NCBI GenBank assembly: GCA_964236545.1
Contig: CAXSCE010000021.1
Coordinates: forward strand, 5,121 to 69,120
DNA length: 64,000 bases
Direction of reading: 5' to 3'
From: an uncultured Bryocella sp.
GTDB taxonomy: Bacteria > Acidobacteriota > Terriglobia > Terriglobales > Acidobacteriaceae
Part shown: piece after piece, positions 4,181 to 63,791 of the stretch
Layout of the letters: the number at the start of each line of letters is the position of its first letter
Position numbering within the stretch: the first letter of the stretch is position 1
The notes under the pieces: generated by a model
Database searches by the model: none
Told to the model about the DNA's origin: nothing
Seen by the model: only the letters and a program-made list of their open reading frames with translations
Made by a program: the position numbers and the translations under genes

Positions 4181-4207
4181 CAAAGGAAGTTAGCGGCAGA
4201 ACGGAAG

Positions 4208-6885: not shown

Positions 6886-6903
6886 GGGTTTGGGAGAGGC
6901 TTG

Positions 6904-7686: not shown

Positions 7687-7786
7687 GAACGGGGCTCCGG
7701 TTGGGTGGCTGGGCGGATAAAAGCAGAACGCAGAGGACGCGGAGCTTGTGGCCGGGTGGCATGGCCAAGCCCTGTTGCGCAGAGGG

Positions 7787-8899: not shown

Positions 8900-8931
8900 G
8901 GGGTGGACCTTGCGCTGTGAGCGAAGACAGA

Positions 8932-8974
8932 GGTCTCTCCGCTCCGCGGCTGCGCCGCTTCGGTCGAGATGACA
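8932..8974 (-). repeat. REP copy (GTCATCTCGACCG family)
   Basis: GGTCTCTCCGCTCCGCGGCTGCGCCGCTTCGGTCGAGATGACA in the argR-argC gap. Confidence 0.8.
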
Positions 8975-9088
8975 GGTTGTTGGGGGCGGGAAGCTTGCCC
9001 TCCGAAACGTGGTTGGGGTGGCAGGGAATCTTGCTCTCTGACAGATTGTTGGCTTGAACGGAGCTGTGCCGCGTGAGCTCTCCAGGGG

Positions 9089-9782: not shown

Positions 9783-12700
9783 ATGGCCCCCTGTTTACCC
9801 ATCCCCAGCAAGCGGGATGCCGAGCTCATGCGGAGCACGTCTTCTCCGAGCCACATTGGCGCGATGCCCCCTGCGTCGGGCGCCCCTTTCCCTGATTCCT
9901 TGTTAGACCCGCGTTTCGAGCATGATTCCTGTGGTGTGGGATTTGTGGCGACCCTGACCGGGCACGCCAGCCACGACATCGTGGAGAAAGCCCTGACGGC
10001 GCTGGCGCGACTAGCCCATCGGGGCGCGGTGGCAGCCGACGGGCTCTCCAGCGACGGTGTCGGATTGATGACGGCGATACCGCGCGCTCTGGTGTTGGGG
10101 CAAACGGGAGCCGTGTTGCCGGCGGGGGAAAAGCTGGCCGTGGGCGTGGTGTTTTTGCCGCCCGACGCCCGGCAGGCGGAAGCCGTTCTGGAACGTGCGC
10201 TCGGGGCCAATGGGACACGCGTACTGGGGTGGCGTGATGTGCCGGTGCGGACGGAGGTGCTGGGCCCGCTTGCGCGGAGCACGATGCCGGCCATCCGTCA
10301 GGTGCTGGTGGCGGACGCTGCTGAGGGGTCGGCCTCGGGTGGTTCTTTGGAGCGCCGGTTGTACCTGGCGCGCAAGGTCTTTGAGCGGGCGGTGGCGGCA
10401 GGTGAAACAACAGGGTACGTGTGTTCGCTTTCGGCGGAGGTGGTGGTCTATAAGGCAATGTGCCTGGGGCGGCTGCTGCCGGAATTCTTCCCCGATCTGC
10501 AGGACCCGGCCTATGTGACGCGATTTGCTGTATTTCATCAGCGCTACGCGACCAATACGATGCCGGCGTGGCATCGCGCGCAGCCAGGACGCAAGCTGGC
10601 GCACAACGGCGAGATCAACACGGTTTGGGGTAACCGGGCACGGATGGATGCGCGCGAGGCGACGCTACCGGAGGAGTGCAAACCGATCCTGACGGCGGAT
10701 GGAACGGATTCGACGAGCCTGGATGAAGCGTCCGAACTGATTTCGCAAAATGGGCGGACGCTGGCGGAAAGTGTGCGGATGCTGTTGCCGCCGGCAACGG
10801 CGAACCGGGTGTCACCGTTTCTGCGATACCACGCGGATTGCTGCGAGCCGTGGGATGGACCGGCAGCGATCGCATTTGCAGACGGGCATGTGGTCGGCGC
10901 GGCACTGGACCGGAACGGTTTGCGGCCCTCCCGGTATGCGCGGACAGAGGGTGGGCTGATCGTGGCCGGTTCCGAGGCCGGGTTGGTGGATCTGGATCCG
11001 GAGCAGGTGGTGGAGAGCGGACGGCTGGGGCCGGGGCAGATGCTCGTGGTGGACCTGGAGGCCGGGCGTTTGCTGCACAACGAGGAACTGCTGGATGCCT
11101 TCGACGCCAACGCGACCTATGCGACCTTGCTTGAGGATGCAACGCTGCTGCCGTTGGCGGCAGCGACCGCTGATGAGTATCGAGCTGTAAGCGGTGGAGC
11201 TTCGATTGGGGCCGGCGACGTAACAGCGCTGCAGCGGGGGTTCGGGTACACGAAGGAAGATCTGAACCTGATCCTAAAGCCGATGGCGGCCGGCGGCAAA
11301 GATGCGGTGTGGTCGATGGGGGATGATACCCCGCTGGCGTTTCTGGCGAAGAGTCCGCGGCCGCTATACCACTACTTTCGGCAGCGGTTTGCGCAGGTGA
11401 CGAACCCGGCGATCGATCCGCTTCGCGAGGCGGTGGTGGTTTCGCTGCATACGCGACTGGGGCCGTGGCCGCACCTGCTGAACACGCATGCGCCGCTGCC
11501 GGGCATCAGTCTGCCTTCGCCGTTTCTATCGCTGGGGCAGATGGAGGCTTTGCGGGCGGGGGCATACCCCCATGCGGATACCTTGGCGTTTGCAGAGGTA
11601 GCCTGTTTGTTCGACGCGGCAGAGACGCTGGAAGAGGCGATCGCGGCACTTGGCGAGCGGGCAAAGGCGGCGGTTATGGCGGGGACCAAGCTCCTGCTGT
11701 TGACCGATCGCGGGGCCAGCGCGACGACGTTGCCGATCCCCATGGCGATGGCCGTGGGCGCGGTGAATGCGGCGTTGACGGTCGCCGGGTTGCGCACGCG
11801 TTGCGGGCTGGCGGTCGAGGCGGGGGATTGCCGCGATCTGCACCATGCAGCGGTGCTGATCGGGTATGGCGCGGGGGCGGTCTGCCCGTGGCTGATGTTT
11901 GAGACGGCAAAAACGCTGGAGCCGGAGGGGGCGGACGGCGAAGCGATGACTGTGAAGGCGCTGGAGGCGGGGCTGGCCAAGGTGATGTCCAAAATGGGCA
12001 TCAGCGTGGTGGATAGCTACCGTTCGGCGCACCTGTTTGACGTTCTGGGGCTGCATGCTTCCGTGGTGGATCGCTGTTTTCCGGGCACACCGGCGCCGTT
12101 ATCGGGTATCGGTTTCGCGGAGATCGAGCGGAGGGTGCGGGCGAGCTGGGAGGCGGCTGTTGCGCCAGCTGCAGGCGAGGCTGTGGTGACACAGAAGGTG
12201 GATTTACCTGACTTTGGGTGGGTGCGTTTTCGGAAGTCGGATGGCAGCGAACCGCACCAGTGGCAGCCGCCGACGGTGAAGGCGCTGCAGACAACAGTGG
12301 GAAGTGCCCGCAACATTGCCAATGCGGTCGATCCGGCGGCGGGGTTTGCGATCTTTTCGCGAGATACCGACGTACACGAGCCGGTGCGTCTGCGGGACCT
12401 TTTGGAGGTTCGTCCCGCCGCGGCCGAACTGCACGTGGTGGAGCCGGTGGATTCACTGGTTAAGCGGTTTGTGGCGAGTGCGATGTCGCTCGGATCGCTT
12501 AGTCCGGAGGCGCACCAGACTGTGACGGCGGCGATGAACATGATGGGCGCGCGATCGAATACGGGTGAAGGCGGAGAGGATCCGGCGGTGTATCGGCCGG
12601 CTGAGGTCCAGGGCTTCCGGATGCCGGCGGATGGCGGTGGGGAGATGTCTGCGGCCTATGCGGGCAGCGCAGCTGCGACGGCGGTGGCCGAGATCACCAG

Positions 12701-14408
12701 TGCGCCGGCGGTGCATGTAAGCCTGAACAACAAGATCAAGCAGGTGGCTTCGGGTCGGTTCGGGGTAACGGCGGAGTACCTGGCGCACGCCGAGGAGATC
12801 GAGATCAAGGTGGCGCAGGGGGCCAAGCCCGGCGAGGGCGGGCAGTTGCCAGGGCACAAGGTCACCGGGCTGATTGCGCGGCTGCGCCATGCGCAGCCGG
12901 GGGTGAGTTTGATTTCGCCTCCGCCGCACCATGACATTTACTCGATTGAGGACCTGGCGCAGCTGATCTATGACCTGAAACGGGTGAATCCGCGGGCGCC
13001 AGTGGGCGTAAAGCTGGTGTCGAGCTTCGGCGTGGGAACCGTGGCGGCAGGTGTGGCGAAGGCGTATGCGGATTATGTGGTCATCGCGGGAAATTCGGGC
13101 GGCACGGGCGCGGCGGCGTTGAGTTCGATCAAATATGTGGGGTCGCCTTGGGAGCTGGGCGTGGCGGAGGCGCAACAGGCGCTGCGCGCCAATGGGATGC
13201 GCGGACGGGTGCGGCTGCGGGCCGATGGCGGCCTGGCCACGGCGCGCGATGTGCTGATCGCGGCGCTGCTGGGAGCTGATGAGTTCGGCTTTGGGACGGC
13301 GGTGCTGGTAAGCCTGGGCTGTGACATGGCGCGACAATGCCACCTGAACACGTGTCCGGTGGGTATTGCGACGCAGAAGCCGGAGTTGCGGGCCAAGTTT
13401 CGCGGCAGGCCGGAACATGTGGTGATTTTCTTCCGGGAGTTGGCGGCGGATCTGCAGCGGCTGCTGGCCAAATTCGGTCTACCGTCGCTGGAGTCGGCGA
13501 TCGGGCGTGTGGATCTGCTGGAGCAGGTGCGCGCAGGCGGCGATCTGGATTTGACGCCCATGCTGGCGGGCGTTGGGGAGGGTCCGCGGCACTGGATGGG
13601 CGAACGCAACAACCGGCCGGGCGAAGATGACCGATTGGACGAAGGGTGGACCGAACCCGCGATGGCGGCAGTGCGGGCCGGCAAGGCTTATTCGGTGAAG
13701 TCGACGATTGCGAATGCGCACCGGTCGGTGGGGGCGCGGTTGTCGGGTGAGCTAGCGGTGGCGCGGGCGGCGGGTCTGGTGGACGACACCGATGTGCGGT
13801 TTGAGCTCGAGGGCGTGGCGGGGCAGTCGTTTGGGGCTTTTGCGAGTGCGGGGATGACGCTGCAACTTTCCGGGCTGGCGAATGACTTTGTCGGCAAGGG
13901 GCTGTGCGGGGCGGATCTGGTGCTGCGCGCGGTGGGCCGGGCGGCGCGGAACAGCCAGGAACATTCTCTGCTGGGCAATGTAGCGTTGTACGGAGCCACG
14001 GCTGGACGGCTGTTTGCGGCGGGGCGCGCGGGCGAGCGGTTTGCGGTGCGAAACTCGGGTGCGACGGCGGTGGTGGAAGGTATCGGTGACCATGGGTGCG
14101 AGTACATGACGGGCGGCACGGTGATTATTCTGGGCGAGATCGGCATTAATTTCGGCGCCGGCATGACGGGCGGCACGGCGTGGGTCTTCGACGAGGACGG
14201 CGATGTGCTCGGGCGGCAGCGATACCACGCGGAGTTTTTGGAGGCGACGCCCTTCGAGGACTGCACGGCAGAGCAGAGAGCCGACCTTTGCGGGCTGTTG
14301 GAAACGCACGTGCAGCTGGCAGAGAGTCAGCGCGCCGCGTGGATGCTGGGGGACTGGGCCAGGCTGGCGGAGCGCTTTGTGTTGTTCACGCCGAAGCCTC
14401 AGGCTTGA
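9783..14408 (+). CDS. gltB: Glutamate synthase large subunit (start uncertain: 9783, 9828 or 9864)
   Basis: EHDSCGVGF (Ntn cysteine), HQRYATNT, NTGEGGE, IKQVASGRFGV, QGAKPGEGGQL, CDMARQCHLNTCPVG (3Fe-4S) and C-terminal GXGXG repeats. Confidence 0.97.
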   Translation: MAPCLPIPSKRDAELMRSTSSPSHIGAMPPASGAPFPDSLLDPRFEHDSCGVGFVATLTGHASHDIVEKALTALARLAHRGAVAADGLSSDGVGLMTAIPRALVLGQTGAVLPAGEKLAVGVVFLPPDARQAEAVLERALGANGTRVLGWRDVPVRTEVLGPLARSTMPAIRQVLVADAAEGSASGGSLERRLYLARKVFERAVAAGETTGYVCSLSAEVVVYKAMCLGRLLPEFFPDLQDPAYVTRFAVFHQRYATNTMPAWHRAQPGRKLAHNGEINTVWGNRARMDAREATLPEECKPILTADGTDSTSLDEASELISQNGRTLAESVRMLLPPATANRVSPFLRYHADCCEPWDGPAAIAFADGHVVGAALDRNGLRPSRYARTEGGLIVAGSEAGLVDLDPEQVVESGRLGPGQMLVVDLEAGRLLHNEELLDAFDANATYATLLEDATLLPLAAATADEYRAVSGGASIGAGDVTALQRGFGYTKEDLNLILKPMAAGGKDAVWSMGDDTPLAFLAKSPRPLYHYFRQRFAQVTNPAIDPLREAVVVSLHTRLGPWPHLLNTHAPLPGISLPSPFLSLGQMEALRAGAYPHADTLAFAEVACLFDAAETLEEAIAALGERAKAAVMAGTKLLLLTDRGASATTLPIPMAMAVGAVNAALTVAGLRTRCGLAVEAGDCRDLHHAAVLIGYGAGAVCPWLMFETAKTLEPEGADGEAMTVKALEAGLAKVMSKMGISVVDSYRSAHLFDVLGLHASVVDRCFPGTPAPLSGIGFAEIERRVRASWEAAVAPAAGEAVVTQKVDLPDFGWVRFRKSDGSEPHQWQPPTVKALQTTVGSARNIANAVDPAAGFAIFSRDTDVHEPVRLRDLLEVRPAAAELHVVEPVDSLVKRFVASAMSLGSLSPEAHQTVTAAMNMMGARSNTGEGGEDPAVYRPAEVQGFRMPADGGGEMSAAYAGSAAATAVAEITSAPAVHVSLNNKIKQVASGRFGVTAEYLAHAEEIEIKVAQGAKPGEGGQLPGHKVTGLIARLRHAQPGVSLISPPPHHDIYSIEDLAQLIYDLKRVNPRAPVGVKLVSSFGVGTVAAGVAKAYADYVVIAGNSGGTGAAALSSIKYVGSPWELGVAEAQQALRANGMRGRVRLRADGGLATARDVLIAALLGADEFGFGTAVLVSLGCDMARQCHLNTCPVGIATQKPELRAKFRGRPEHVVIFFRELAADLQRLLAKFGLPSLESAIGRVDLLEQVRAGGDLDLTPMLAGVGEGPRHWMGERNNRPGEDDRLDEGWTEPAMAAVRAGKAYSVKSTIANAHRSVGARLSGELAVARAAGLVDDTDVRFELEGVAGQSFGAFASAGMTLQLSGLANDFVGKGLCGADLVLRAVGRAARNSQEHSLLGNVALYGATAGRLFAAGRAGERFAVRNSGATAVVEGIGDHGCEYMTGGTVIILGEIGINFGAGMTGGTAWVFDEDGDVLGRQRYHAEFLEATPFEDCTAEQRADLCGLLETHVQLAESQRAAWMLGDWARLAERFVLFTPKPQA

Positions 14409-41150: not shown

Positions 41151-42338
41151 TCAGCCCCCACCGCTGTAGAAATCAGCGATAGCATTCACCACGGTCTCCA
41201 CCTCATCCTCCCGCAACTCCGGAAAGATTGGCAGCGCCAGAACCTCGCCGGCCGCTCGCTCGGCCTCCGGAAATTCGCCGGATCGGTAGCCGAGCGGCAG
41301 GAGGCTCTCCTGCAGATGCAGCGGCAGGGGATAGTACACCTCAGTGCCGATGCCGCGCCCGGTGAGCGACGCCCGCAGAGCCTCCCGCCGAGAAACTCGC
41401 AGAACGTACTGGTGAAAGACGGGTTCGGCGCGTTGATCCACAAAGGGCAACACCACGCCGGACTCCACCGAAGCCGCGACCAACCCGGCCGCCGTGAACT
41501 TTGCGTCGTACATAGCCGCGAGCTCACGGCGTTTGGCATTGCCCGGCGGCAGGCGTCGCAGCTTCACCTCTAGAACCGCCGCCTGAATGCCGTCCAGCCG
41601 CGAATTCCAGCCAATTTCTTCGTGGTAATACCGGCGGCGCATGCCATGGTTGCGCAGCGAGCGTGCGCGTTCCCCGACAGCCTCGTCCCGCGTGGTCACC
41701 AGACCCGCATCGCCAAAGGCGCTGAGATTCTTCGTGGGATAGAAGCTGAAGGCGGCCGTGTCTCCCAGCGAGCCCGCAGGCCGGCCGTTCCAGCGGGCGC
41801 CGAAGGCCTGCGCCGCGTCCTCAATTATCCGTAGATTGTGGCGGGCCGCCAATGCGCCCAGGCCATCCATGTCCGCCGCCTGTCCGTAGAGGTGCACCGG
41901 CAGCACGGCCTTCACGGCAAGATGCCGCGCCGCGGCTTGTCTCAGCGTGTCTTCCACCGCCTCGGGGGAAAGATTGAACGTGCGCTCGTCGATATCGGCC
42001 AGCAGCGGCGTAGCCCCCACCCGCAGAATGGCGCTGACGGTCGCAAAGAAGCTGAACGGGGTCGTGATCACCGCATCGCCGGGGCCGATACCGAGCGCCG
42101 CCATGGCCAGCCAAAGGGCATCGGTGCCGCTCGCGCAGCCGACGCCCGCGGCCGCTCCGCACGTTGCCGCCGCGGCCGCCTCAAACCGCGCGGCTGCTGG
42201 TCCCAGGATGAAGTGCTGGCCGTCGCACACCGCAGCGATGGCTTCGAGCACCTCCTCCCGGATCGCCGCATACTCGCGGCTAAGGTCAAGCAGTGGCACA
42301 GAGAGTTGGCCGGGAAGGGAAGCGGTCGCCATCCCCAC
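41151..42338 (-). CDS. DegT/DnrJ/EryC1/StrS family sugar aminotransferase
   Basis: [47 protein letters not shown]. Confidence 0.93.
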
Positions 42339-42550
42339 AGAATATCTTGAGAGCTCGAAGCGTTTTGTGTGCGTCCGGCCTCAGGGAGAAAGTGCAGGGG
42401 AAGGGAGGCAGGGCTTCTGCCGCCCCTGGCTTGTGCCTCCCTGAGAAAATCTGTAGGGTGGTGTCGGCGAGGCGAGCATTTTTGCATGGATGTAACCCAG
42501 CATCTTTCCTTCGGGAACGGCCCGCAATAGCAGAACAGGAGATCGGCCAT

Positions 42551-42847
42551 ATGGACATCAAGCCGGCGCAGAACATCCAGGACACGTTTCTGAATACGGT
42601 CCGTAAAGACAAGAGTCCCATCACGATCTACCTGGTAAGCGGCGTCAAGCTGACCGGCAAGATCCGCTCCTTCGACAAGTACTCCGTGCTGCTTGAAAAC
42701 AACGCTCAGGAGCAACTGATCTTTAAACATGCCATCTCCACCGTGGTGAGCGGGCGCCTGCCCCACAGCGAGGGCCGCCCTGAACCACGGCTGAGCGCGG
42801 CGGAGAACGGTATCCCTGCCGCGGCCAGCACTCCGGCGGTACGGTAG
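42551..42847 (+). CDS. hfq: RNA chaperone Hfq
   Basis: [32 protein letters not shown]. Confidence 0.97.
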
Positions 42848-51644: not shown

Positions 51645-52739
51645 ATGGCTCTCCTAACGCCCCATCCCCTGCAAGAGATCCTGAAACATCGCATCGCCAT
51701 CATCGACGGCGCCATGGGCACAACCATCCGTACCTACGGCATGGCAGAGGCGGACATTCGCCGGGGCCGCTTCGAGGACGCCGGCAAAGACCTGCTTAAC
51801 AATGGTGACCTCTTTTCGCTCACGCAGCCGAAGATGATTTGCGACATCCATCGTCGTTTCCTTGAAGCCGGCGCGGATATTATCGAGACCAATACCTTCG
51901 GCGCGACGAATATTTCACAGAGCGAGTTTTTCGTGGATGACCCGCGCGAACGGGGCGGCCGCAAAGATCCCGAGTTCTATCAGAAGATTCTCGAAGATGC
52001 GGCCCTAAACAATCTCGCTTGGGATATTAATGAGCAGTCTGCCCGGCAATGCCGTGAGTGGGCCGATCGTGTCGGCAATGACACCGGCCGGCAGCGTTTC
52101 GTCGCAGGCGCGATCGGACCGCTGACGGTTTCGCTGTCCAACTCTCCTGATGCGGACGATCCCGGCTTTCGCGTGGTGACGTTTGATCAGGTGAAGAGTG
52201 CGTACGTGCACCAGGTAAAAGCCCTGATCGCCGGCGGTTCCGACCTGCTGCTGGTGGAGACCATCTTCGATTCCCTGAACGCCAAGGCCGCGCTGGTTGC
52301 CATCCGTGAGGTCTTCGACGAGGGCGGCAGGGAATTGCCGGTGATGATTTCTGCCGCTGTGGGCCGCGGCGGCGAAACCATGATCTCCGCCCAGACCATT
52401 GAGGCATTCTGGAATGCCGTGGAGCACGTTAACCCATTGTCGATCGGGCTTAACTGCTCGCTCGGCCCGGATCTGATGTACCCCTTTCTGGCGGAGCTGT
52501 CGCAAAAAGCCGGGGTTGCCGTCTCGTGCTATCCCAATGCCGGCCTGCCCAATCCGCTGTCGCCAACTGGTTTTGACCTCGATCCCGCCGACATGGCACG
52601 TTACCTCGGCGAGTTTGCCATCGGCGGTCTGATCAACATCGCCGGCGGTTGCTGCGGGAATACACCGGAGCACATCGCGGCGATTGCCAAGGCGCTGGAC
52701 GGCCGTGATCCCCGGCCCATTCCGGAGGTGGCGGCATGA
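51645..52739 (+). CDS. metH: Cobalamin-dependent methionine synthase, stand-alone homocysteine-binding domain
   Basis: [57 protein letters not shown]. Confidence 0.93.
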
Positions 52740-55501
52740 GCGGTGCGGAACAGCAGATTCCCTTGGGAGACAGCGGTACAAAAGGCCAAAGCGAAGCGAG
52801 CGTTAAGCCGCTGCGCCTCTCGGGTTCGCAGCCGTTCACCCAACAACCGGGCATCTTCATCATGCTCGGCGAGCGCACCAACGTTGCCGGCTCTCCAAAG
52901 TTCGCCCGCCTGATTAAGGAGGGCAACTACGAAGAGGCCGTGAGCGTTGCGCGCCAGCAGGTGGAAAACGGCGCCAACGTGCTCGACATCTGCATGGACG
53001 AGGGCATGATCGACGGGGTGGCCGCCATGAGCCGCTACCTGCAACTGCTTGCCTCCGAGCCGGAAGTCGCCAAGGTGCCCTTCATGGTGGATTCATCCAA
53101 ATGGGAGGTCATCGAGGCTGGTCTGAAATGCCTGCAGGGCAAAGGCATCGTCAACTCCATCTCGCTGAAGGAAGGCGAGGAGAAGTTCCGTAGGAACGCC
53201 GCGATCGTGCGCAAGTATGGCGCCGCCGTGGTCGTGATGGCCTTCGACGAGCAGGGCCAGGCGGCCACGTACGAGGACAAGATCCGCATCTGCGGGCGTG
53301 CCTACCGCATCCTCGTCGATGAGGTCCGTTTCCCGCCCGAAGACATCATTTTCGACCCCAACATCCTCACCGTAGCCACCGGCATGGAGGAGCACAATAA
53401 CTACGCCCTCGACTTCATCAATGCCACGCGCTGGATTAAAGCCAACCTGCGCCATGCGAAGGTCTCGGGCGGGGTGTCCAACATCAGCTTCAGTTTTCGC
53501 GGCAACAACAAGGTCCGCGAGGCGATGCACTCGGCCTTTTTGTACCACGCCATCGCTGCCGGCATAGATATGGGCATCGTCAACGCCGGGATGCTCGAGG
53601 TCTACGAGGATATCGAGCCCGAGCTCAAGGTTCTAGTCGAAGACGTCCTGCTCAACCGCCGACCCGATGCCACCGAGCGCCTCGTAGACCACGGCGAAGC
53701 GCTCAAGGCCGCAGGCTCCGGCGGGACGGCCGCCGCCGAAAAGAAGGCGGAGGAGTGGCGAAACGGTACCGTGGAAGAGCGTCTCTCCTATGCCCTTGTG
53801 CGCGGCATTGACAGCTATATTGATGCGGACACCGAGGAGGCGCGCGCCAAGCTCGGCCGTCCTCTGCTCGTCATTGAAGGCCCGCTGATGTCCGGGATGA
53901 GCGTGGTTGGCGACCTGTTCGGCTCGGGCAAGATGTTTTTGCCGCAGGTGGTCAAATCCGCGCGCGTCATGAAGAAGTCGGTCGCTTACCTGACGCCATT
54001 CATGGAGGCCGAAAAGGCCGAGATGGCCGCCGCCGGCGAGGCCGTGCGCACGCAGGGCAAGATCGTGCTCGCCACCGTCAAGGGCGATGTGCACGATATC
54101 GGCAAAAATATCGTCGGCGTGGTGCTCGCGTGCAATAACTACGAGGTCATCGACATGGGCGTCATGGTGCCTGCGGAGAAGATCCTTGCCCGCGCGAAGG
54201 AAGTCAAGGCGGACATCATCGGCCTCAGCGGGCTGATCACGCCCTCGCTCGACGAGATGGTGCACGTGGCGCGCGAGATGGACCGGCAGGGTTTCAGCAT
54301 CCCCCTGCTGGTCGGCGGCGCCACTACCAGCCGCGCGCACACGGCTATCAAAATCGCCCCGCACTACCGCCAGCCCGTCATCCATGTCACCGACGCCAGC
54401 CGCGCCGTACCCGTCACCACCAGCCTGCTTAGCGATGAGGGCCGGGAGCAGTTCGTGGAGCAGCACCAAGCCGAGTATGAGGCATTACGCAAGGCCCACC
54501 AGGCGCCGAAGCAGGCTCTCACCCCGATCAAGCAGGCCCGCGCGCGCCGCACACCCATCGAGTGGCGCCCCGAGGACATCCCTGCGCCCTCCTTTACCGG
54601 CGTGCGCGTTCTCCAAGATTTCCCACTCGCCACCCTTTGCGAGTTCATTGACTGGTCGCCGCTTTTCCATGCCTGGGGCCTCAAAGGCATCTACCCGCGC
54701 ATCCTTGAGGATGAACGCCAGGGCGAACAGGCCCGCTCGGTCTTTTCCGATGCCAAGGTCATGCTCAACCGCATTGTTTCCGAGAACCTGCTCACCGCGC
54801 GCGGTGTCTACGGCCTGTTCCCGGCCAACGCCGTCGGCGATGATGTGGAGCTCTACACGGACGGAACCCGCACACAAAGCAGCGAGAAGTTCCACTTCCT
54901 TCGGCAGCAGGCCAACCGCGAAGGCGCCGAACCCTGCCGCTCGCTGGCCGACTTCATTGCGCCGAAAGAGACTGGCCTGCCCGATCACATCGGCGCTTTC
55001 GCCGTGACCACAGGCCTTGGTCTCAAGGAACTCGGCAATCACTTCAAAGCGCAACACGATGACTACAGCGCCATCATGGCTGAGGCGCTCGCCGACCGGC
55101 TGGCTGAAGCCTTTGCCGAGTGCCTGCACAAGCTGGTCCGCGACGAGTGGGGCTATGGCTGCGCGGAGGCCTTTACCCCCGTCGAACTTATCGCAGAAAA
55201 GTATCGCGGCATCCGCCCCGCGCCCGGCTATCCGGCCTGCCCTGATCACACGGAAAAGGGTACGATCTGGCGGCTGCTCGACGTGCAGGCCAACACGGGC
55301 ATGGAAATCACTGAGAGCTTCGCTATCTGGCCAGGCTCCAGCGTTAGCGGCATCTACTTCGCGCATCCGGAGTCGCGCTTTTTCTCGCTGGGTAAGATCG
55401 ATCGCGATCAGGTTGCCGACTACCAGCGCCGCAAAGGCATGCACCTCGCCGAGGTAGAGCGCTGGCTCGGGCCCAACCTGAGCTACGATCCTGAGGCTTA
55501 A
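52736..55501 (+). CDS. metH: Cobalamin-dependent methionine synthase: pterin-binding, B12-binding and reactivation domains
   Basis: [55 protein letters not shown]; ATGA overlap with the upstream half. Confidence 0.95.
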
Positions 55502-55757: not shown

Positions 55758-56384
55758 ATGGCTACGAAGAAAGCTGCAGCAAAGAAATCCGTGACCGAGA
55801 AAACGGTTACGGAGAAAGCGCCAGCGAAGAAGACCGCAGCAAAGAAAGCAGCAGCGAAGAAAACAGCTGCAAAAAAGACGGCGGCCTCTGCGCCGAAAAA
55901 GCAAGTCGCGCACGGCAACAACGACGACAACTACACGAAGCCTGAACTCCGCGAGCACATCAAGGAAGAAATAATGGCCGGCGACAAGGGGGGCAAGCCC
56001 GGCCAATGGAGCGCCCGGAAAGCGCAGCTGGTGGCGCACGAATACGTCGCTGAAGGTGGAGGCTACAAGCATCCTCGCAACGAAGCCCAGCAGCACCTGC
56101 AGCAATGGGGCGACGAGCATTGGCACACCGCCGACGGCAAACCCGCTATCCGCGACGACGGCCAAGGTGGCGAAGAAACGCATCGGTATCTGCCGGACGA
56201 AGCCTGGAAGGAGCTCTCACCCGCTGAGCGGAAAGCCACCGATGCTGAAAAGGTGCAGGGTTCGCACGAGGGCAAGCAGTTTGTACCCAACACGGACGTA
56301 GCCAGCGAGGCACGGCAGCACGCCACAGGAAGCCACTCAAAGCAGACCGACGCAACCGGAAACGCGAAGAAAAGCAACGCGTAG
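55758..56384 (+). CDS. Lys/Ala-rich (histone H1-like) tail fused to a DUF5872-like basic domain
   Basis: KKAAAKK repeats, then NYTKPELRE...GDKGGKPGQWSARKAQL...GGGYK...QWGDEHW...RYLPDEAW...GKQFV; family recognised from memory. Confidence 0.7.
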   Translation: MATKKAAAKKSVTEKTVTEKAPAKKTAAKKAAAKKTAAKKTAASAPKKQVAHGNNDDNYTKPELREHIKEEIMAGDKGGKPGQWSARKAQLVAHEYVAEGGGYKHPRNEAQQHLQQWGDEHWHTADGKPAIRDDGQGGEETHRYLPDEAWKELSPAERKATDAEKVQGSHEGKQFVPNTDVASEARQHATGSHSKQTDATGNAKKSNA

Positions 56385-56417: not shown

Positions 56418-56450
56418 TAAACCATTCCACCCGTGATGAGCGGGTCGAAT

Positions 56451-56549
56451 TTCATGCAGAGTGGTTGAGGGACGAGCCCTGTGACGCCACGACAACCGGA
56501 CAGAATACAGTACCGGTGTCAACTCTCGCCTGGCAACAGGACACATGGG
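56451..56549 (+). ncRNA. SAM-I (S-box)-class riboswitch aptamer
   Basis: TTCATGCAGAGTGGTTGAGGGACGAGCCCTGTGACGCCACGACAACC...GGTGTCAACTC...ACATGGG matches the S-box pattern AUC-AGAG..GAGGGA..GCCC..UGA..GCAACC..GGUGC-AA..GAUG. Confidence 0.88.
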
Positions 56550-56663
56550 ATTCGGTGGAGCAGAGCTGTACCCAAGATCGTCCTGCCTCCACAGATCTCC
56601 GTACCCTGAACTCCGGCAAGAGCGGCCACAGCCAGCAGCACCCCTCACTCACCGGAGTGATCC

Positions 56664-57965
56664 ATGGAGTATTACTGTAGCGCCTACGAGCTACGCTGTA
56701 ATGAGTGTGGCAAAAGTTTTGGCAATCGCCCTCAGTCTGCCTGCGACGAATGCCTGGCACCCCTTGAGGTGCAGTACGATCTGAACCGGATGCGAGAGCG
56801 CGTTTCCCGGCAGAGCATAGCAGCCGGCCCAGCCAACATCTGGCGTTACAGCGAAATGCTTCCCATACCGAACGGCTTTGAGCCCGATTTGCCGGTTGGC
56901 TTTACACCTCTGGTGCGCGCGAAATCTCTGGGCAAGCGTCTTGGTGCCAGCCAACTTTACGTCAAAAATGATGCGGTTTGCTTTCCCACGCTGAGCTTCA
57001 AGGACCGGGTCGTCTCCGTGGCGCTCGCCAATGCGCAGGCCTTTGGCTTCGACGTCGTCGGTTGCTCCTCGACTGGCAATCTTGCAAACTCCGTGGCGGC
57101 GCAGGCTGCCCGCCTCGGTATGAAAGCTTGCATTCTGATCCCTGCTGATCTCGAACAGGCCAAAATTCTCAATACCCAGGTCTATGGCGCGCGCCTCGTT
57201 CGTATCGAAGGCAACTACGATCACGTCAACCGACTCTGCACTCTTATCGCTGACGAGTACAACTGGGGCTTCGTCAATGTGAACCTGCGGCCCTACTATG
57301 CGGAGGGGTCAAAGACCGTAGGTTATGAAATTGCCGAGCAACTCGGTTGGCGTCTGCCCGATAACGTCGTTGTGCCCATGGCCGGCGGCTCGCTCATCCG
57401 TAAAATTCGCAAGGCCTTCAAGGAGCTCGTACAGCTTGGCCTGGTCGATGACAAGCCCGTGCGCTTCTTCGGCGCGCAGGCCACAGGCTGCTCGCCCATC
57501 GCGCATGCGGTCAAGCAGGGCTGGGACTACATTGAGCCGCAGCGGCCCCACACCATCGCCCGTTCGCTTGCTATCGGCAACCCCGCCGACGGTCCGGCGG
57601 CTGCCAAGATGATCGCGGAATGCAATGGATATGCCGAAGATGTTTCCGATGTCGAAGTCGTCTCCGGCATTCTGGAGCTGGCGGAAACGGAAGGAATCTT
57701 CACCGAAACCGCCGGCGGCGTTACCACTGCGGTGACCGCGCGGCTCTACGCCGATGGCCGCATCGGCCCGAATGAACTTACCGTCGCCTGCATCACCGGC
57801 AACGGCCTGAAAACCCTGGATGTGCTGCAGGGCCGCTTCGACACTGCACAGCCTGTTAAGCCCAAGCTTGCCGCTTTCGACGAGTACATTCGCGCCGTCG
57901 ATGGCTCGCTCGTCGGACAACCGGTGGACACCGAAGAACTCGTGCTAGCAGGAGGTGGGCGGTGA
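56664..57965 (+). CDS. Threonine-synthase-like PLP enzyme (fold type II) with an N-terminal zinc ribbon; probably a sulfur-amino-acid synthase
   Basis: CNECG...CDEC zinc ribbon, FPTLSFKDR (PLP lysine), SSTGNLA, YYAEGSKT, VPMAGGSL, ITGNGLK. Confidence 0.85.
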   Translation: MEYYCSAYELRCNECGKSFGNRPQSACDECLAPLEVQYDLNRMRERVSRQSIAAGPANIWRYSEMLPIPNGFEPDLPVGFTPLVRAKSLGKRLGASQLYVKNDAVCFPTLSFKDRVVSVALANAQAFGFDVVGCSSTGNLANSVAAQAARLGMKACILIPADLEQAKILNTQVYGARLVRIEGNYDHVNRLCTLIADEYNWGFVNVNLRPYYAEGSKTVGYEIAEQLGWRLPDNVVVPMAGGSLIRKIRKAFKELVQLGLVDDKPVRFFGAQATGCSPIAHAVKQGWDYIEPQRPHTIARSLAIGNPADGPAAAKMIAECNGYAEDVSDVEVVSGILELAETEGIFTETAGGVTTAVTARLYADGRIGPNELTVACITGNGLKTLDVLQGRFDTAQPVKPKLAAFDEYIRAVDGSLVGQPVDTEELVLAGGGR

Positions 57966-58249
57966 GTGTAAAGGTAGTTTTGCCGACAGCCTTGGCGCGG
58001 CACACGGAAGGGCAAAAAAGCTTCGCGTCCGAAGCGAAAGATCTATCTGCACTGCTTTCGGAGATCGATGCCAGGTATCCAGCCCTGGCGCAGAATGTAA
58101 AAGATGACAAAGGCAAGCTGCGCCGCTTCATCAATGTCTACATCAACGATGAAGATATTCGCTTTCTTGGCGGCGAAACGCACCTCTTTGCCGATGGCGA
58201 TGAAGTAATGCTCATTCCTTCTATTGCCGGCGGATCTTTAAATCTGTAG
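57962..58249 (+). CDS. MoaD/ThiS/CysO-type ubiquitin-like sulfur carrier with a 4-residue extension after GG
   Basis: LPTAL...RRFINVYINDEDIRF...DGDEVMLIPSIAGG-SLNL; GTGA overlap with the upstream gene. Confidence 0.9.
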   Translation: MSVKVVLPTALARHTEGQKSFASEAKDLSALLSEIDARYPALAQNVKDDKGKLRRFINVYINDEDIRFLGGETHLFADGDEVMLIPSIAGGSLNL

Positions 58250-58399: not shown

Positions 58400-58432
58400 A
58401 AATGGGCCTCAGTCGTGAGGCCCATTTGTTTT
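58400..58432 (+). terminator. Probable intrinsic terminator
   Basis: 12-bp stem AAATGGGCCTCA-GTCG-TGAGGCCCATTT followed by GTTTT. Confidence 0.7.
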
Positions 58433-58457
58433 CGACCACAGATGAAAGGATTATCCG

Positions 58458-59889: not shown

Positions 59890-60276
59890 GCACGAAGGGT
59901 TGTGCATCACGGGGCAGCCGTGAAGGTCGTGACCGACCCCCATACTTCTTGAATTAAAGTATTAATTCTGGGCAGTTTAGTGGTGGACTTTGGTGCGAGT
60001 ACCCCCGACTGCTGATGTTTTGCTCTCCGAAGTGGCAAGTCTCTGGTGTTTACTGCCTGTAGTGTAGCCAGCGTGGCGAAATGTTGTGCAAGCCGTCAGT
60101 CTCTGCCTAGGTTGGCATTCATCAGGTCGTGTTGATTTATAGAGCGATTTGTACTCTTCTTTGTTCCCGGTGGATGTAGGCGTCGAGGCCCATGGGTTCA
60201 GGGTAGCGTGTCGGCTGATCCGACCCATGCGCGATGAGGTGTTCCCCAAAGGGAGCACCTGGCTTCCCCTGAAGTT

Positions 60277-60308
60277 GGGTGCCCCACGTCTCGCTTCTGA
60301 GACGTGGG
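60277..60308 (+). repeat. Left REP of the RAYT locus
   Basis: GGGTGC-CCCACGTCTC-GCTTCT-GAGACGTGGG: a perfect 10-bp hairpin 17 nt upstream of the RAYT start. Confidence 0.85.
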
Positions 60309-60324
60309 TTTATAGGATGTCTGC

Positions 60325-60884
60325 ATGACGCAGGGATTGGTGCGGTATCAGCAGACGGGCGACCTGCACTTCGTTACCTTCAGCTGTTTTCATAGACGCC
60401 CGTACCTCGAGATGGCGGAGGCTCGTGATGCCTTTAACGTGCGTTGGAGACGATGCGGGTGCGGTACGACTTCTTTGCCATTGGGTATGTGGTCATGCCG
60501 GAGCATGTGCATTTGTTGGTGAGTGAACCTCGGGAGGTGCTTTTAGCCAAGGCGCTGCAGGCGCTGAAGCTATCCGTGGCGGTAAAGCAGGAGAAGCGGC
60601 CGTTTTGGCAGGCCCGGTACTACGACTTCAATGTGTTCACAGCGGCGAAGCGGGTGGAGAAGCTGAACTACCTGCACGAGAACCCGGTGACTCGTGGGTT
60701 GGTTGGCTTTGCGGAGAACTGGGCGTGGTCGAGTGTGCGGCACTGGTTAACGGGTGCGCCGGGGGTGGTGGAGGTGGAGTCGAACTGGACGGCTTCGCGG
60801 AGGGATTGTGCCGCGGCGGAGGCCCAGGTCTTAGAAACGAGACCTGGGGCACCCACGTTGCCGCGGCGGAGGCCCAGGTCTTAG
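60325..60884 (+). pseudogene. REP-associated tyrosine transposase (RAYT/TnpA-REP, HUH Y1) with a 1-nt deletion near 60435
   Basis: MTQGLVRYQQTGDLHFVTFSCFHRRP in one frame; YVVMPEHVHLL (HUH), FWQARYYDFN, YLHENPV and WAWSS in the next. TTT-AA-CGT would be TTT-GAA-CGT (FER) in frame. Confidence 0.9.
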
Positions 60885-60907
60885 AAACGAGACCTGGGGC
60901 ACCCACG
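60809..60907 (-). repeat. Tandem duplication (period 50 bp) carrying two right-hand REPs
   Basis: TGCCGCGGCGGAGGCCCAGGTCTTAGAAACGAGACCTGGGGCACCCACG twice; inverted relative to the left REP. Confidence 0.92.
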
Positions 60908-61980: not shown

Positions 61981-62105
61981 TACATGCATGCGAACCCGGT
62001 CAGTCGTGGGGTCGTTTGGCTTCCCGGAGACTGGGCGTGGTCGAGTGTGCGGCACCGGTCGACGGATACGCCGGGGGTTAGTCGAGTTGGACGGCTGCGC
62101 GGAGA
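61981..62105 (+). pseudogene. Second, truncated RAYT 3' fragment
   Basis: YMHANPVSRGVVWLPGDWAWSSVRHRSTDTPGV versus YLHENPVTRGLVGFAENWAWSSVRHWLTGAPGV in the upstream RAYT. Confidence 0.85.
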
Positions 62106-62124
62106 GATCGTGATATCGCGGAAG

Positions 62125-62190
62125 CCCTGGCCTCAGAAGCGAGACCTGGGGCACCCAATGTGTTAGTGAGGTGAGATGTGGCCACCCGCC
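62125..62190 (-). repeat. REP plus downstream GATGTGGCCACCCGCC half-site
   Basis: CCCTGGCCTCAGAAGCGAGACCTGGGGCACCC (62125-62156), 18 nt, then GATGTGGCCACCCGCC; same layout as 60873-60939. Confidence 0.8.
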
Positions 62191-62198: not shown

Positions 62199-63791
62199 TT
62201 AAGTTCGTTCAGGCGCTCGTTCTGGCGTGACAGGGGTCTCGAGGATGTTCTGGGTAAGGATGATTCGTCTAATACTCCGCTTATCGTCGAATGGCACAAC
62301 GTACTCACTGGAATCTCCATTCGCCAAGTCGAAACCAAGATCCGGTTTTTTGCTGGTATTCATCAGATCGACGTAAGTCCCGTAATCGAGAGCATAGATG
62401 TCGTACCGCACACCTGGAGTATCTTTGTCTGCATAGCCACGAGCCACAAGATGTAGAACCCTCAAATCGAAGAGCTGCTGGATGAGGGGATTTGACCGCA
62501 GTTCACGAGGGAGCAAAAATGATCTAGCCTTCCGCGTTCCAATTACTTCGTCTGTGATTCTTCTTAGCACTGAGCGCAATTCGTCGGTCAGGTTTCTTTC
62601 CTTGTCCTGCTCGAACCATTGACGGGCCGCTTCTAACACGGCTTCACGGTCCACCTTGTCCCTGTGCTTACGTTGAGCTATAAAGTAAGCTTTGCTGAAG
62701 ATGTTGATTAGATCACGAGCAACACCCTCTGCTGCCCGTACAAGCTCTTGAAAAACTTTTCTCTCAGTAAACAGTCGACTGGCCAATCTTTTCCCGTCGC
62801 TTATGCCTAATTCGACTAAACGTTCTGCTCCGAGGTCACTGGCTAAATGACGAACGAGTATGTCCGAGAAAGCATCTGTTATTCCTTCGGGATTCCGGTC
62901 GAAAACGTAATAATCGTCGATATCCAAGCTGGCTGAGATATCCGCGCCAATTTCAAAACCGAGGCTGCCGTTTTTCGTGTTGATCCCGAAATCAGAGCGA
63001 TGCTCAAGCGCCGCAATCTTCAGAGCAACATTTGGCAATGGCACGAATGAGCGTTTTATGAATTCGGCTCAATACGGCTGAACATCCAAAGGCAAGGATG
63101 ACCACTCGTCAATCAGCAAGTACAAATTTGCTTCATAGTAGCCGAGTATCTCGCGAAGAGAACCGCTTACAAATGGAAAAATTATCTTATCCGAGTACTC
63201 GAATTTGTAGGTGCGGGCGATTTCCGCTTCTGCAATGTCTTTCGCCGAACCGCCCAACTGGAGAGATGCTGAACTCGCGATCGTTGCACCAGCATTTAGA
63301 GTAGATTCCGAGTTGGTTTTATTTCGCTCAGTAACGCTGTCAAGGCGCTTGACCTCCGCAGGTTCTGTAGCGACCTCGCCAAAATTACTGAGGGCCTCCA
63401 AGGCAGCATCAGCGAAATCACCACCCTCGTTAACTACGAATGCGAGAAGAGAGTTGTAGATCTCCATTAACAGATCACGAAATAATGCTGTACAGCGTAA
63501 GACTATCGACAGGTTAGGATCAGCGAACTGGCTAGAGCTACCGAATGTTCGTGCGTCAACGTAACATACGCAGGTTCGTTTGTTCTTGGCTAACTCAGAC
63601 TCCAAAACTCGCAAAATGTGTGTCTTGCCAGTGCCACGACGCCCAAAGATTATTTGATTGTTAGTGTTTTCAAGTTGCGGAATGATCCCTGGATCTACGA
63701 AAGCCTCTACAAGCTTCTGGGTGTCTGTTTGTTTCTCCGATCGCTGCGGAATTCTTGCTACGGCCTTAGCTAAATCTTTGTCGAGAACCAT
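62199..63791 (-). pseudogene. P-loop ATPase (ORC1/CDC6-like or STAND-related), about 530 aa, interrupted by one in-frame TGA at 63069-63071
   Basis: Walker A IFGRRGTGKT and Walker B LYLLIDEW. The two track ORFs are in the same frame: QPY*AEFIKRSFVPLPNVALKIAA. Markedly AT-richer than the core genes. Confidence 0.8.

What the first reader, a model, noticed from the sequence alone, without database searches (positions are those of the whole stretch)
56451..58249. SAM riboswitch + ThrC-like enzyme + sulfur carrier beside metH: a candidate carrier-dependent homocysteine pathway
Seen: an S-box aptamer, a PLP fold-II enzyme with a zinc ribbon, and an overlapping MoaD-like protein, 1.2 kb downstream of metH. 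Established: SAM-I riboswitches control Met/Cys genes, not threonine synthesis; thiocarboxylated ubiquitin-like carriers donate sulfur to PLP enzymes (CysM/CysO in M. tuberculosis, HcyS in Wolinella). Inference: the enzyme eliminates phosphate from O-phosphohomoserine and adds carrier sulfur to give homocysteine for MetH. I recall a similar route reported in Streptomyces, which needs checking; automated annotation would mislabel this as thrC.
Basis: partly seen in the sequence, partly recalled or inferred. Interest (0 to 1): 0.75.

Follow-up and report, generated by a model that had tools for sequence, protein, structure and literature searches.

The report
SAM-riboswitch-controlled MetM/MetO homocysteine synthase operon
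This is an acidobacterial copy of the recently described MetM/MetO route, in which a threonine-synthase look-alike and a small sulfur-carrier protein make homocysteine from O-phosphohomoserine under SAM-riboswitch control; it is a known pathway in a new phylum and is still mislabelled "threonine synthase" by standard annotation.

Summary
A SAM-I aptamer lies at 56449-56551 (Rfam 67.2 bits, threshold 44.4). It is followed by a 433-aa ThrC-like PLP enzyme with an N-terminal four-Cys ribbon (56664-57965). A 95-aa ThiS/MoaD-type carrier (57962-58249) overlaps it by 4 nt, and a strong terminator hairpin closes the unit.

The same riboswitch, enzyme and carrier arrangement is found in about 25 Streptomyces genomes. 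In Streptomyces albulus this system was characterised in 2024 as MetM/MetO: O-phosphohomoserine plus MetO-thiocarboxylate gives homocysteine.

- The window enzyme is 53-55% identical to Streptomyces orthologues and 34-35% identical to solved threonine synthases.
- It shares the clade's active-site substitutions.
- The SAM-I aptamer precedes the gene in 79 of 79 testable actinobacterial loci and 75 acidobacterial loci.

It is therefore a new member of a known kind. Two differences stand out. The acidobacterial carriers are almost always made with a C-terminal tail after the Gly-Gly (here SLNL), so they need proteolytic maturation. The riboswitch has no terminator in its expression platform.

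Not testable here: enzyme activity, a separate thrC, other homocysteine routes, and the Mec and MoeZ helper genes.

The parts
56449..56551 (+). SAM-I (S-box) riboswitch aptamer
   Evidence: Rfam RF00162 at 67.2 bits (gathering score 44.4), E 1.7e-13, full-length match. It is 80-95% conserved upstream of the same gene in 75 acidobacterial loci.
56444..56556 (+). Extended 13-bp P1 helix closing the aptamer (56444-56456 pairs with 56544-56556)
   Evidence: RNAalifold consensus over 25 leaders. The outermost pair covaries (GU 14, UA 8, CG 3).
56554..56592 (+). Hairpin directly after P1 (GGUGGAG...CCUCCAC). Its first 3 nt overlap the extended P1, and no U-tract follows it.
   Evidence: Read from the sequence and present in MFE folds. 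No terminator-like site was found on the + strand.
56597..56616 (+). Candidate anti-initiation segment. CUCCGU can pair with AUGGAG (start codon plus codon 2), and ACUCCGG can pair with the SD region CCGGAGU. Alternatively it pairs with the released P1 3' strand.
   Evidence: Two-state folding of the window leader: initiation-region unpaired probability 0.02 with P1 closed and 0.34 with the P1 3' strand free. The effect is not consistent across 62 related leaders, so this assignment is tentative.
56654..56657 (+). Shine-Dalgarno GGAG of the enzyme gene, 6 nt before the ATG
   Evidence: Direct reading.
56664..57965 (+). metM-like gene: ThrC-homologous PLP enzyme, 433 aa, predicted MetO-thiocarboxylate-dependent homocysteine synthase
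   Evidence: PALP and TIGR00260 hits. 53-55% identity to Streptomyces riboswitch-linked orthologues against 34-35% to solved ThrCs. Shared clade-specific motifs. AlphaFold2 pLDDT 89.7 with Foldseek top hits to ThrC.
56697..56753 (+). Four-Cys ribbon (C12, C15, C27, C30) of the N-terminal extension that short ThrCs lack
   Evidence: Invariant or nearly invariant in alignments A1 and A3. Modelled as strands 8-12, 18-20 and 33-38 with pLDDT about 90.
57000..57002 (+). Codon of Lys113, the PLP Schiff-base lysine in SFKDR
   Evidence: Aligns with K61 of T. thermophilus ThrC and is invariant in all sequences.
57950..57955 (+). AGGAGG Shine-Dalgarno of the carrier gene, inside the 3' end of the enzyme gene
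   Evidence: Direct reading.
57962..58249 (+). metO-like gene: ThiS/MoaD/CysO-type sulfur-carrier protein, 95 aa. Its GTG start overlaps the upstream stop (GTGA).
   Evidence: Pfam ThiS. M. tuberculosis CysO 3DWG_C at E 3.4e-23. 43% identity to Streptomyces MetO and 46% to Mtb CysO. The same gene follows the enzyme gene in every acidobacterial locus with enough downstream sequence.
58229..58246 (+). Carrier C-terminus: Gly90-Gly91 followed by a 4-residue tail, SLNL, that must be removed to expose the Gly-Gly
   Evidence: Direct reading. 77 of 78 acidobacterial carriers have a 1-20 aa tail, whereas 39 of 50 actinobacterial ones end at GG.
58400..58436 (+). Intrinsic terminator closing the two-gene unit: 12-bp stem AAAUGGGCCUCA/UGAGGCCCAUUU followed by GUUUUC
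   Evidence: Fold of -24 kcal/mol, z = -5.4, with 0 of 200 shuffles as stable.
51645..55501 (+). Context: cobalamin-dependent methionine synthase MetH, the consumer of homocysteine, split into a homocysteine-binding ORF (51645-52739) and a pterin/B12/activation ORF (52736-55501)
   Evidence: Pfam and NCBIfam hits. The same split and the same neighbourhood occur in close relative L082, but not in Granulicella mallensis L081.

Best explanation
The unit is a two-gene, SAM-repressed operon for homocysteine synthesis by the MetM/MetO (protein-thiocarboxylate) route.

Inferred from the characterised Streptomyces system:
- The carrier (MetO-like) is first trimmed to expose its C-terminal Gly-Gly.
- It is then adenylated and converted to a thiocarboxylate by an E1-like/rhodanese enzyme (MoeZ-type) encoded elsewhere in the genome.
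- The ThrC-like PLP enzyme (MetM-like) binds O-phosphohomoserine and eliminates phosphate as ThrC does. Instead of adding water at C-beta, it lets the carrier thiocarboxylate attack C-gamma.
- Release from the carrier gives homocysteine, which the neighbouring MetH methylates to methionine.

When SAM is high, the SAM-I aptamer closes its long P1 helix and expression falls. Because no terminator follows the aptamer, this most likely works by occluding the ribosome-binding and start region. That step is tentative.

Shown here: the three elements, their operon structure, orthology to the Streptomyces loci, and the universal riboswitch linkage. Inferred: substrate, product, sulfur donor, the maturation and activation steps, and the switch mechanism.
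For: - Riboswitch: RF00162 at 67.2 bits. The same aptamer lies directly upstream of the orthologous gene in 79 of 80 actinobacterial loci; the remaining locus has no upstream sequence. It is also upstream in 75 of 82 acidobacterial loci; the other 7 lack upstream sequence or were not detected.
- Carrier: a ThiS-type gene follows immediately in the window, in all acidobacterial loci with room, and in about 50 actinobacterial loci including every Streptomyces.
- Literature: MetM (a ThrC homologue), MetO, Mec and MoeZ convert O-phosphohomoserine to homocysteine in S. albulus, MetM is 'often misannotated' as threonine synthase, and metM has an upstream SAM riboswitch.
- Phylogeny: 53-55% identity to Streptomyces orthologues against 34-35% to B. 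subtilis, A. aeolicus, M. tuberculosis and T. thermophilus ThrC. A neighbour-joining clade of acidobacterial plus actinobacterial riboswitch-linked proteins (plus two metagenomic representatives) has 72% bootstrap support.
- Clade-specific substitutions shared by the window protein and the Streptomyces clade fall at ThrC positions T88, S155, R160 and N188 (T. thermophilus numbering), along with several other motifs.
- Operon structure: 4-nt overlap, an internal AGGAGG, and a terminator after the carrier gene.
- Context: metH is adjacent in this lineage.
Against: - No biochemical or genetic test was possible.
- The S. albulus MetM sequence itself was not available. The primary paper is not held, and the genome scan returned other Streptomyces species. 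The link therefore runs through congeneric orthologues with identical architecture.
- A cyanobacterial homologue about 52% identical to MetM and next to a metO-like gene was reported to act as threonine synthase and deaminase in vitro, and not clearly as MetM (PMC12172450). That one lacks the riboswitch, but it shows that about 50% identity does not guarantee function.
- The protein passes NCBI's thrC equivalog cutoff.
- Mec- and MoeZ-type genes are not in the 64 kb window.
- The carrier is as similar to CysO (46%) as to Streptomyces MetO (43%).
- The riboswitch OFF mechanism is not supported consistently across relatives.
Confidence: 0.8

Rival explanations
1. It is a genuine threonine synthase (a long form with a zinc ribbon) that happens to sit behind a SAM riboswitch, with the carrier gene serving some other pathway.
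For: TIGR00260 thrC at 272 bits against a cutoff of 167. The best structural and sequence matches in the PDB are all ThrC. The PLP lysine and most PLP-site residues are kept. A cyanobacterial relative showed ThrC and deaminase activity in vitro.
Against: - A SAM-OFF switch on ThrC would lower threonine synthesis exactly when methionine is plentiful. That is the reverse of the known logic at this branch point, where plant ThrC is activated by SAM (established knowledge).
- The riboswitch linkage holds in 79 of 79 testable actinobacterial loci and in 75 acidobacterial loci.
- The carrier gene is translationally coupled to the enzyme gene.
- ThrC's substrate-phosphate residues T88, S155, R160 and N188 are replaced.
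- Identity to solved ThrCs is only 34-35%, including M. tuberculosis ThrC, which comes from the same phylum as the MetM clade.
Confidence: 0.05
2. It is a carrier-dependent cysteine-forming or other beta-replacement enzyme. It would work like CysM/CysO, or be cysteate-synthase-like and use O-phosphoserine, rather than being a homocysteine synthase.
For: The carrier's closest solved relative is M. tuberculosis CysO (E 3.4e-23, 46% identity). ThrC-derived cysteate synthases use O-phosphoserine, and the NCBIfam cysteate_syn model gives a weak hit that includes the N-terminal ribbon. Foldseek also finds the cysteate-synthase-like CapA2 structure 9k3c. SAM-I riboswitches also control some cysteine and sulfur genes (established knowledge).
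Against: The cysteate_syn score is 44.6 against a cutoff of 324.9, and the cysteine synthase A score is 38.5 against 387. The enzyme is orthologous in sequence and architecture to the Streptomyces loci whose S. albulus member was shown to make homocysteine. It sits next to metH in this lineage.
Confidence: 0.05
3. The enzyme makes homocysteine from O-phosphohomoserine but uses free sulfide (direct sulfhydrylation). The carrier would be dispensable or would serve another acceptor.
For: In Micromonosporaceae and relatives, the riboswitch-linked enzyme gene has no adjacent carrier gene (loci L001-L026). This shows the pair can be separated.
Against: The carrier gene is adjacent, and usually overlapping, in every acidobacterial locus with enough sequence. 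Secondary sources describe the characterised system as MetO-thiocarboxylate-dependent.
Confidence: 0.07

Closest known systems
MetM/MetO of Streptomyces albulus (Hasebe et al. 2024): thiocarboxylate-dependent homocysteine synthesis from O-phospho-L-homoserine
   Same: The architecture matches: a SAM-I riboswitch, a ThrC-homologous enzyme with a four-Cys N-terminus, and an immediately following carrier of about 91 aa ending in ...AGG. The clade-specific active-site motifs are shared. It is a two-gene unit with the helper genes (Mec, MoeZ) not adjacent; Streptomyces locus L074 also has unrelated neighbours.
   Different: - The phylum differs (Acidobacteriota, a Granulicella-like lineage from a lichen metagenome).
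- Enzyme identity is about 54% and carrier identity about 43%.
- The carrier carries a 4-aa tail after GG, whereas Streptomyces carriers end at GG or GG-Cys.
- The aptamer-to-start spacer is 112 nt and contains a hairpin, whereas the Streptomyces spacers are much shorter.
- The unit is next to a split metH.
CysM/CysO/Mec/MoeZ of Mycobacterium tuberculosis (protein-thiocarboxylate-dependent cysteine synthesis)
   Same: A CysO-type carrier (46% identical) donates sulfur to a fold-type II PLP enzyme acting on an O-phospho amino acid. The chemistry of activation and release is presumably shared.
   Different: The partner enzyme here is ThrC-like rather than CysK/CysM-like. The predicted reaction is a gamma-replacement on O-phosphohomoserine, not a beta-replacement on O-phosphoserine. 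The unit is riboswitch-controlled.
HcyS/HcyD/HcyF/MetY of Wolinella succinogenes
   Same: A carrier-dependent homocysteine synthesis in which the carrier is made with extra C-terminal residues that a protease must remove.
   Different: The enzyme there is a fold-type I O-acetylhomoserine sulfhydrylase (MetY) acting on an acyl-homoserine, and the protease and E1 genes are clustered with it.
Threonine synthase ThrC (EC 4.2.3.1)
   Same: Same fold, same PLP lysine, the same predicted substrate, and the same first half-reaction (phosphate elimination).
   Different: An N-terminal Cys4 ribbon, a remodelled phosphate-binding loop, a sulfur nucleophile at C-gamma instead of water at C-beta, and methionine-type regulation.
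Plant cystathionine gamma-synthase branch point
   Same: O-phosphohomoserine is the common precursor of threonine and methionine, with SAM as the regulatory signal.
   Different: The enzyme family and the sulfur donor (cysteine) differ. SAM acts on ThrC allosterically and on CGS mRNA, not through a riboswitch.

Membership tests
MetM/MetO homocysteine synthase system | Enzyme is a ThrC-homologous fold-type II PLP protein with the catalytic lysine | tested here: met
   PALP at E 6.5e-65, TIGR00260 at 272 bits, and K113 in SFKDR aligned to ThrC K61. Foldseek top hits are ThrC.
MetM/MetO homocysteine synthase system | Enzyme groups with Streptomyces MetM rather than with canonical ThrC | tested here: met
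   53-55% identity to Streptomyces riboswitch-linked orthologues against 34-35% to four solved ThrCs. The joint clade has 72% bootstrap support, and signature motifs are shared. Caveat: the S. albulus sequence itself was not available, so congeneric orthologues were used.
MetM/MetO homocysteine synthase system | Adjacent ThiS/MoaD-type carrier with a C-terminal Gly-Gly | tested here: met
   ThiS Pfam hit, CysO-like, overlapping the enzyme gene. The Gly-Gly is present but followed by SLNL, so maturation is required.
MetM/MetO homocysteine synthase system | SAM riboswitch upstream of metM | tested here: met
   RF00162 at 67.2 bits. The same holds in all Streptomyces loci examined. PMC12172450 states this for S. 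albulus.
MetM/MetO homocysteine synthase system | Carrier-activating MoeZ-type enzyme and Mec-type hydrolase present in the genome | not testable with these tools
   Neither is encoded in the 64 kb window (Pfam scans), and the rest of the genome is not available. They are not adjacent in Streptomyces L074 or G. mallensis L081 either.
MetM/MetO homocysteine synthase system | Catalyses O-phosphohomoserine + carrier-thiocarboxylate -> homocysteine | not testable with these tools
   Needs an enzyme assay or complementation.
MetM/MetO homocysteine synthase system | Genome has a separate canonical thrC | not testable with these tools
   No second ThrC-like gene was found in the window or in any fetched locus.
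Threonine synthase (ThrC, TIGR00260) | Scores above the family's curated HMM cutoff | tested here: met
   272.4 bits against a cutoff of 167.1. The Streptomyces orthologue L074 scores 275.7, so the model does not separate MetM from ThrC.
Threonine synthase (ThrC, TIGR00260) | Conserved substrate-phosphate site (T88, S155, R160, N188 in T. thermophilus numbering; the roles of these residues are recalled from the ThrC structural literature) | tested here: not met
   T88 becomes L140, S155 becomes N207, R160 becomes Y212, and N188 becomes G241. The loops read VNVNLRPYYAEGSKT and PMAGGSL in place of VN-SVNPxRxEGQKT and PVGNAGN.
SAM-I riboswitch (RF00162) | Covariance-model score above the gathering threshold with a full-length four-helix aptamer | tested here: met
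   67.2 bits against 44.4, model positions 1-108. P1-P4 are recovered by RNAalifold.
SAM-I riboswitch (RF00162) | Recognisable expression platform (terminator/antiterminator or SD sequestration) | tested here: inconclusive
   There is no terminator on the + strand between the aptamer and the start codon. The window leader shows initiation-region sequestration in the P1-closed state (0.02 against 0.34), but no consistent effect appears over 62 relatives.
CysM/CysO cysteine synthase system | Partner enzyme is a CysK/CysM-type O-phosphoserine sulfhydrylase | tested here: not met
   The cysteine synthase A model scores 38.5 bits against a cutoff of 387, and the best models are ThrC.

The most novel reading that the evidence does not exclude
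In Acidobacteriaceae, a dominant soil and lichen lineage, this operon may be the main or only route to homocysteine. O-phosphohomoserine would then be a plant-like branch point between threonine and methionine, gated by a SAM riboswitch. The carrier is made as a pro-protein whose variable C-terminal tail (1-20 aa; one conserved long class reads xCGQRR[FW]LTLPYDxSxL) would add a maturation or control step not described for the Streptomyces system.
Probability: 0.3. Interest if true: 0.45.

Novelty: new member of a known kind. Interest (0 to 1): 0.3.

Why it matters
It extends an experimentally defined but very recent methionine pathway (2024, Streptomyces) to Acidobacteriota. The linkage of SAM riboswitch, enzyme and carrier is essentially universal across two phyla. 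That gives a simple, checkable rule for re-annotating hundreds of "threonine synthase" genes: riboswitch upstream, ThiS-type gene downstream, and the motifs STGNL / NLRPYYAEG / IGNPADG. For metabolic reconstruction of acidobacteria, it changes which precursor and which sulfur donor feed methionine. It does not reveal a new kind of system.

Tried and rejected
- **Primary paper.** Reading Hasebe et al. by DOI and by PMC id failed because it is not held. I relied on three secondary sources.
- **S. albulus locus.** The single genome-collection scan returned 80 actinobacterial loci with about 25 Streptomyces species, but not S. albulus.
- **Separate thrC, metX/metY/metB, mec or moeZ.** None was found in the window or in any fetched locus. 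I found no way to read whole genomes with these tools.
- **Riboswitch mechanism.**
  - The terminator scan found nothing on the + strand.
  - The whole-leader fold was uninformative (z = -1.25).
  - Three versions of a two-state accessibility calculation over 62 unique leaders showed no consistent change (mean SD and start accessibility about 0.3 in both states; Wilcoxon p 0.76 and 0.47).
  - The window's own leader does show the expected change, but I do not claim the mechanism.
- **Transcript evidence.** The only runs holding the sequence are DNA-type metagenome contigs, the best being a lichen metagenome.
- **Distinguishing MetO from CysO by sequence.** This is not possible, since the identities are 43% and 46%.
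- **Zinc ribbon as a MetM marker.** Rejected, because more distant ThrC-like representatives at 33-37% identity with ThrC-like loops also have it.
Full report
**What is there**

Rfam finds one RNA family in the whole window: a full-length SAM-I aptamer at 56449-56551 (+), scoring 67.2 bits against a gathering score of 44.4. A GGAG Shine-Dalgarno precedes the ATG at 56664, 112 nt downstream of the aptamer.

The ATG opens a 433-aa ORF (56664-57965). It matches Pfam PALP and passes NCBI's thrC equivalog model (272 bits, cutoff 167). Its first 55 residues have no counterpart in the solved short ThrCs. They carry CxxC-x11-CxxC (C12, C15, C27, C30), which is invariant or nearly invariant in alignments of 15 and 46 diverse homologues. 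AlphaFold2 folds this region as a small three-stranded unit with pLDDT about 90.

The TGA stop of this ORF overlaps the GTG start of a 95-aa ORF (57962-58249), with an AGGAGG 6 nt upstream. The second ORF is a ThiS/MoaD-family protein. Its closest solved relative is M. tuberculosis CysO (E 3.4e-23).

A 12-bp GC-rich hairpin followed by GUUUUC lies at 58400-58436 (-24 kcal/mol, z = -5.4) and closes the unit. Upstream, separated by a lysine/alanine-rich histone-like gene, lies cobalamin-dependent metH, split into two overlapping ORFs.

**Organism and source**

The closest proteins, at 80-94% identity, come from Granulicella and other Acidobacteriaceae. Every named one is called "threonine synthase". 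The sequence is held almost completely by one lichen-metagenome run.

**Is this a known system?**

Yes. [quoted passage not shown] 2024)". Its components are MetO (carrier), Mec (hydrolase), MoeZ (sulfur ligase) and MetM. [quoted passage not shown] PMC12172450 adds that S. albulus metM has an upstream SAM riboswitch and sits next to metO. A 2026 preprint cites the same route. I could not read the primary paper.

**Link to the Streptomyces system**

A search of 1.84 billion representatives gave diverse relatives. One of them, 51% identical, is from Micromonosporaceae. An alignment headed by it was used to scan one genome per species, and it returned 80 actinobacterial loci, about 25 of them Streptomyces.

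In every locus from L027 onward for which a downstream gene could be called, except L028, L042 and L069, the next gene is a roughly 91-aa carrier ending IIPAVAGG or ...AGGC. Rfam found the SAM-I aptamer directly upstream in 19 of 19 loci tested. A covariance model built here found it in 79 of 80 loci; the exception has no upstream sequence. The Streptomyces unit is also a two-gene island with unrelated neighbours.

The window enzyme is 53-55% identical to these orthologues and 34-35% identical to B. subtilis, A. aeolicus, M. tuberculosis and T. thermophilus ThrC. In a neighbour-joining tree the acidobacterial and actinobacterial riboswitch-linked proteins, plus two metagenomic representatives, form a clade with 72% bootstrap support.

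The window protein shares motifs with the Streptomyces clade that differ from ThrC:

| Window and Streptomyces clade | ThrC |
|---|---|
| STGNL | STGNT |
| VNVNLRPYYAEGSKT | VN-SVNPxRxEGQKT |
| PxA(G/S)GS | PVGNAGN |
| IGNPADG | IGNPASW |
| ETAGGVT | EPASAAS |

In T. thermophilus numbering these changes include T88, S155, R160 and N188. I recall these from the ThrC structural literature as contacts of the substrate phosphate. That phosphate, once released, guides water addition in ThrC, so altering the site fits a different second half-reaction. This last point is inference.

NCBIfam gives the Streptomyces orthologue the same hits at the same level as the window protein. No current model separates the two functions. 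No MetM structure is in the PDB, and Foldseek returns ThrCs.

**Conservation in Acidobacteriota**

G. mallensis has the aptamer, enzyme and overlapping carrier in a different neighbourhood. A 92%-identical relative has the same neighbourhood as the window, running ATP synthase, ferredoxin, split metH, histone-like gene and then the unit.

A metagenome scan gave 80 more acidobacterial loci. The aptamer is upstream in 75 of the 82 acidobacterial loci; the other 7 lack upstream sequence or were not detected. The carrier gene follows in every locus with room. The trio is therefore a conserved unit, while the metH adjacency is specific to this lineage.

**What differs from the described system**

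1. *Carrier tails.* Of the actinobacterial carriers, 39 of 50 end at Gly-Gly and 9 of 50 at Gly-Gly-Cys. Of the acidobacterial carriers, 77 of 78 carry a tail of 1-20 residues after an invariant LIPSIAGG. The tails are SLNL in the window, SF in G. mallensis and C in the close relative. The Gly-Gly must be free to be adenylated, so these are pro-proteins. No JAMM-type peptidase or E1 is encoded in the window.
2. *Expression platform.*
   - The aptamer has a 13-bp P1 whose outermost pair covaries. It is followed by a hairpin that overlaps P1 by 3 nt and has no U-tract, and no terminator was detected.
   - The operon's own 3' end does have a classical terminator, so its absence in the leader is meaningful and points to translational control.
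   - For the window leader, closing P1 lowers the unpaired probability of the start region from 0.34 to 0.02. In the predicted folds the segment 56597-56616 pairs either with the released P1 3' strand or with the SD and start region.
   - The same calculation over 62 related leaders shows no consistent effect. I regard the mechanism as unresolved.

**Rivals**

- *A true ThrC under SAM control.* This is contradicted by the regulatory logic, the coupled carrier, the altered phosphate site and the phylogeny.
- *A cysteine- or cysteate-type enzyme.* This is suggested by the CysO-like carrier (46% identity against 43% to Streptomyces MetO) but contradicted by orthology and by very low scores to those families.
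- *Sulfide-dependent activity.* It cannot be excluded, and it is hinted at by Micromonosporaceae, which keep the riboswitch and enzyme but lack an adjacent carrier.
- *A caution from the literature.* A cyanobacterial relative about 52% identical to MetM, without a riboswitch, behaved as a threonine synthase and deaminase in vitro.

**Verdict**

It describes a pathway published in 2024 and already included in GapMind. It is a new member of a known kind, with two modest peculiarities: pro-protein carriers and an unusual expression platform. Genome-level checks and biochemistry remain to be done.

Noticed in passing
window 51645-52739 and 52736-55501: MetH is encoded as two ORFs overlapping by 4 nt: a homocysteine S-methyltransferase domain alone (364 aa), then the pterin, B12 and activation domains (921 aa). 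The same split occurs in the 92%-identical relative L082 (5057-6160 and 6157-8892), so it is a genuine split gene and not a sequencing frameshift.
   Followed up: partly
window 55758-56384: A 208-aa protein lies between metH and the riboswitch, with an N-terminal KKAAAKK-type lysine/alanine repeat. It gives weak, sub-threshold matches to histone H1-like HC2 models. A 196-aa gene with no Pfam hit occupies the same position in L082.
   Followed up: partly
loci L083, L087, L089-L091, L097, L102, L104, L111, L122, L125, L128, L136, L139 (carrier gene 3' ends): A subset of acidobacterial carriers has a conserved 17-20 aa extension after Gly-Gly, with the pattern (R/H)CG(Q/A)RR(F/W)LT(L/V)PY(D/N)xSxL(EGC). 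Another class ends S(C/F)A(D/H)(G/S)E. Over half of all tails (43 of 78) contain Cys. The function is unknown.
   Followed up: partly
loci L001-L026, L028, L037 (Micromonosporaceae, Jatrophihabitans, Blastococcus and relatives): These actinobacteria keep the SAM-I riboswitch and the MetM-like gene, but no carrier gene was found within 6 kb. The carrier may be encoded elsewhere, or a different sulfur donor may be used.
   Followed up: partly
window 60276-60905 and 61981-62158: An IS200-like Y1 transposase fragment (60444-60884, weak Pfam hit) is flanked by inverted copies of a 33-nt palindromic unit, TGGGTGCCCCACGTCTCGCTTCTGAGACGTGGG (60276-60308, against 60823-60855 and 60873-60905). A second, roughly 80%-identical partial copy of the 3' part lies at 61981-62157. 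It looks like a REP/RAYT-type element with a degenerate duplicate.
   Followed up: partly
window 62199-63791 (- strand): An ORC/CDC6-like AAA ATPase (63069-63791) is followed by a 281-aa protein with no Pfam hit (62199-63044), next to the repeat element. It may be a mobile or defence-type module.
   Followed up: no
window 2-9544 (- strand): An arginine biosynthesis cluster: argH-like lyase, argininosuccinate synthase, ornithine carbamoyltransferase, acetylornithine aminotransferase, acetylglutamate kinase and a semialdehyde dehydrogenase, with an ArgR repressor gene at 9089-9544. The glutamate synthase large subunit follows at 9783-14408.
   Followed up: no
window 42293-42847: The Hfq domain occupies residues 95-154 of a 184-aa ORF. 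Either the protein has a long N-terminal extension or the ORF start is over-called.
   Followed up: no
L027 810-876: An Rfam 'Transposase-2 RNA' (RF03015, 70 bits) lies in the Streptosporangium locus, unrelated to the operon.
   Followed up: no
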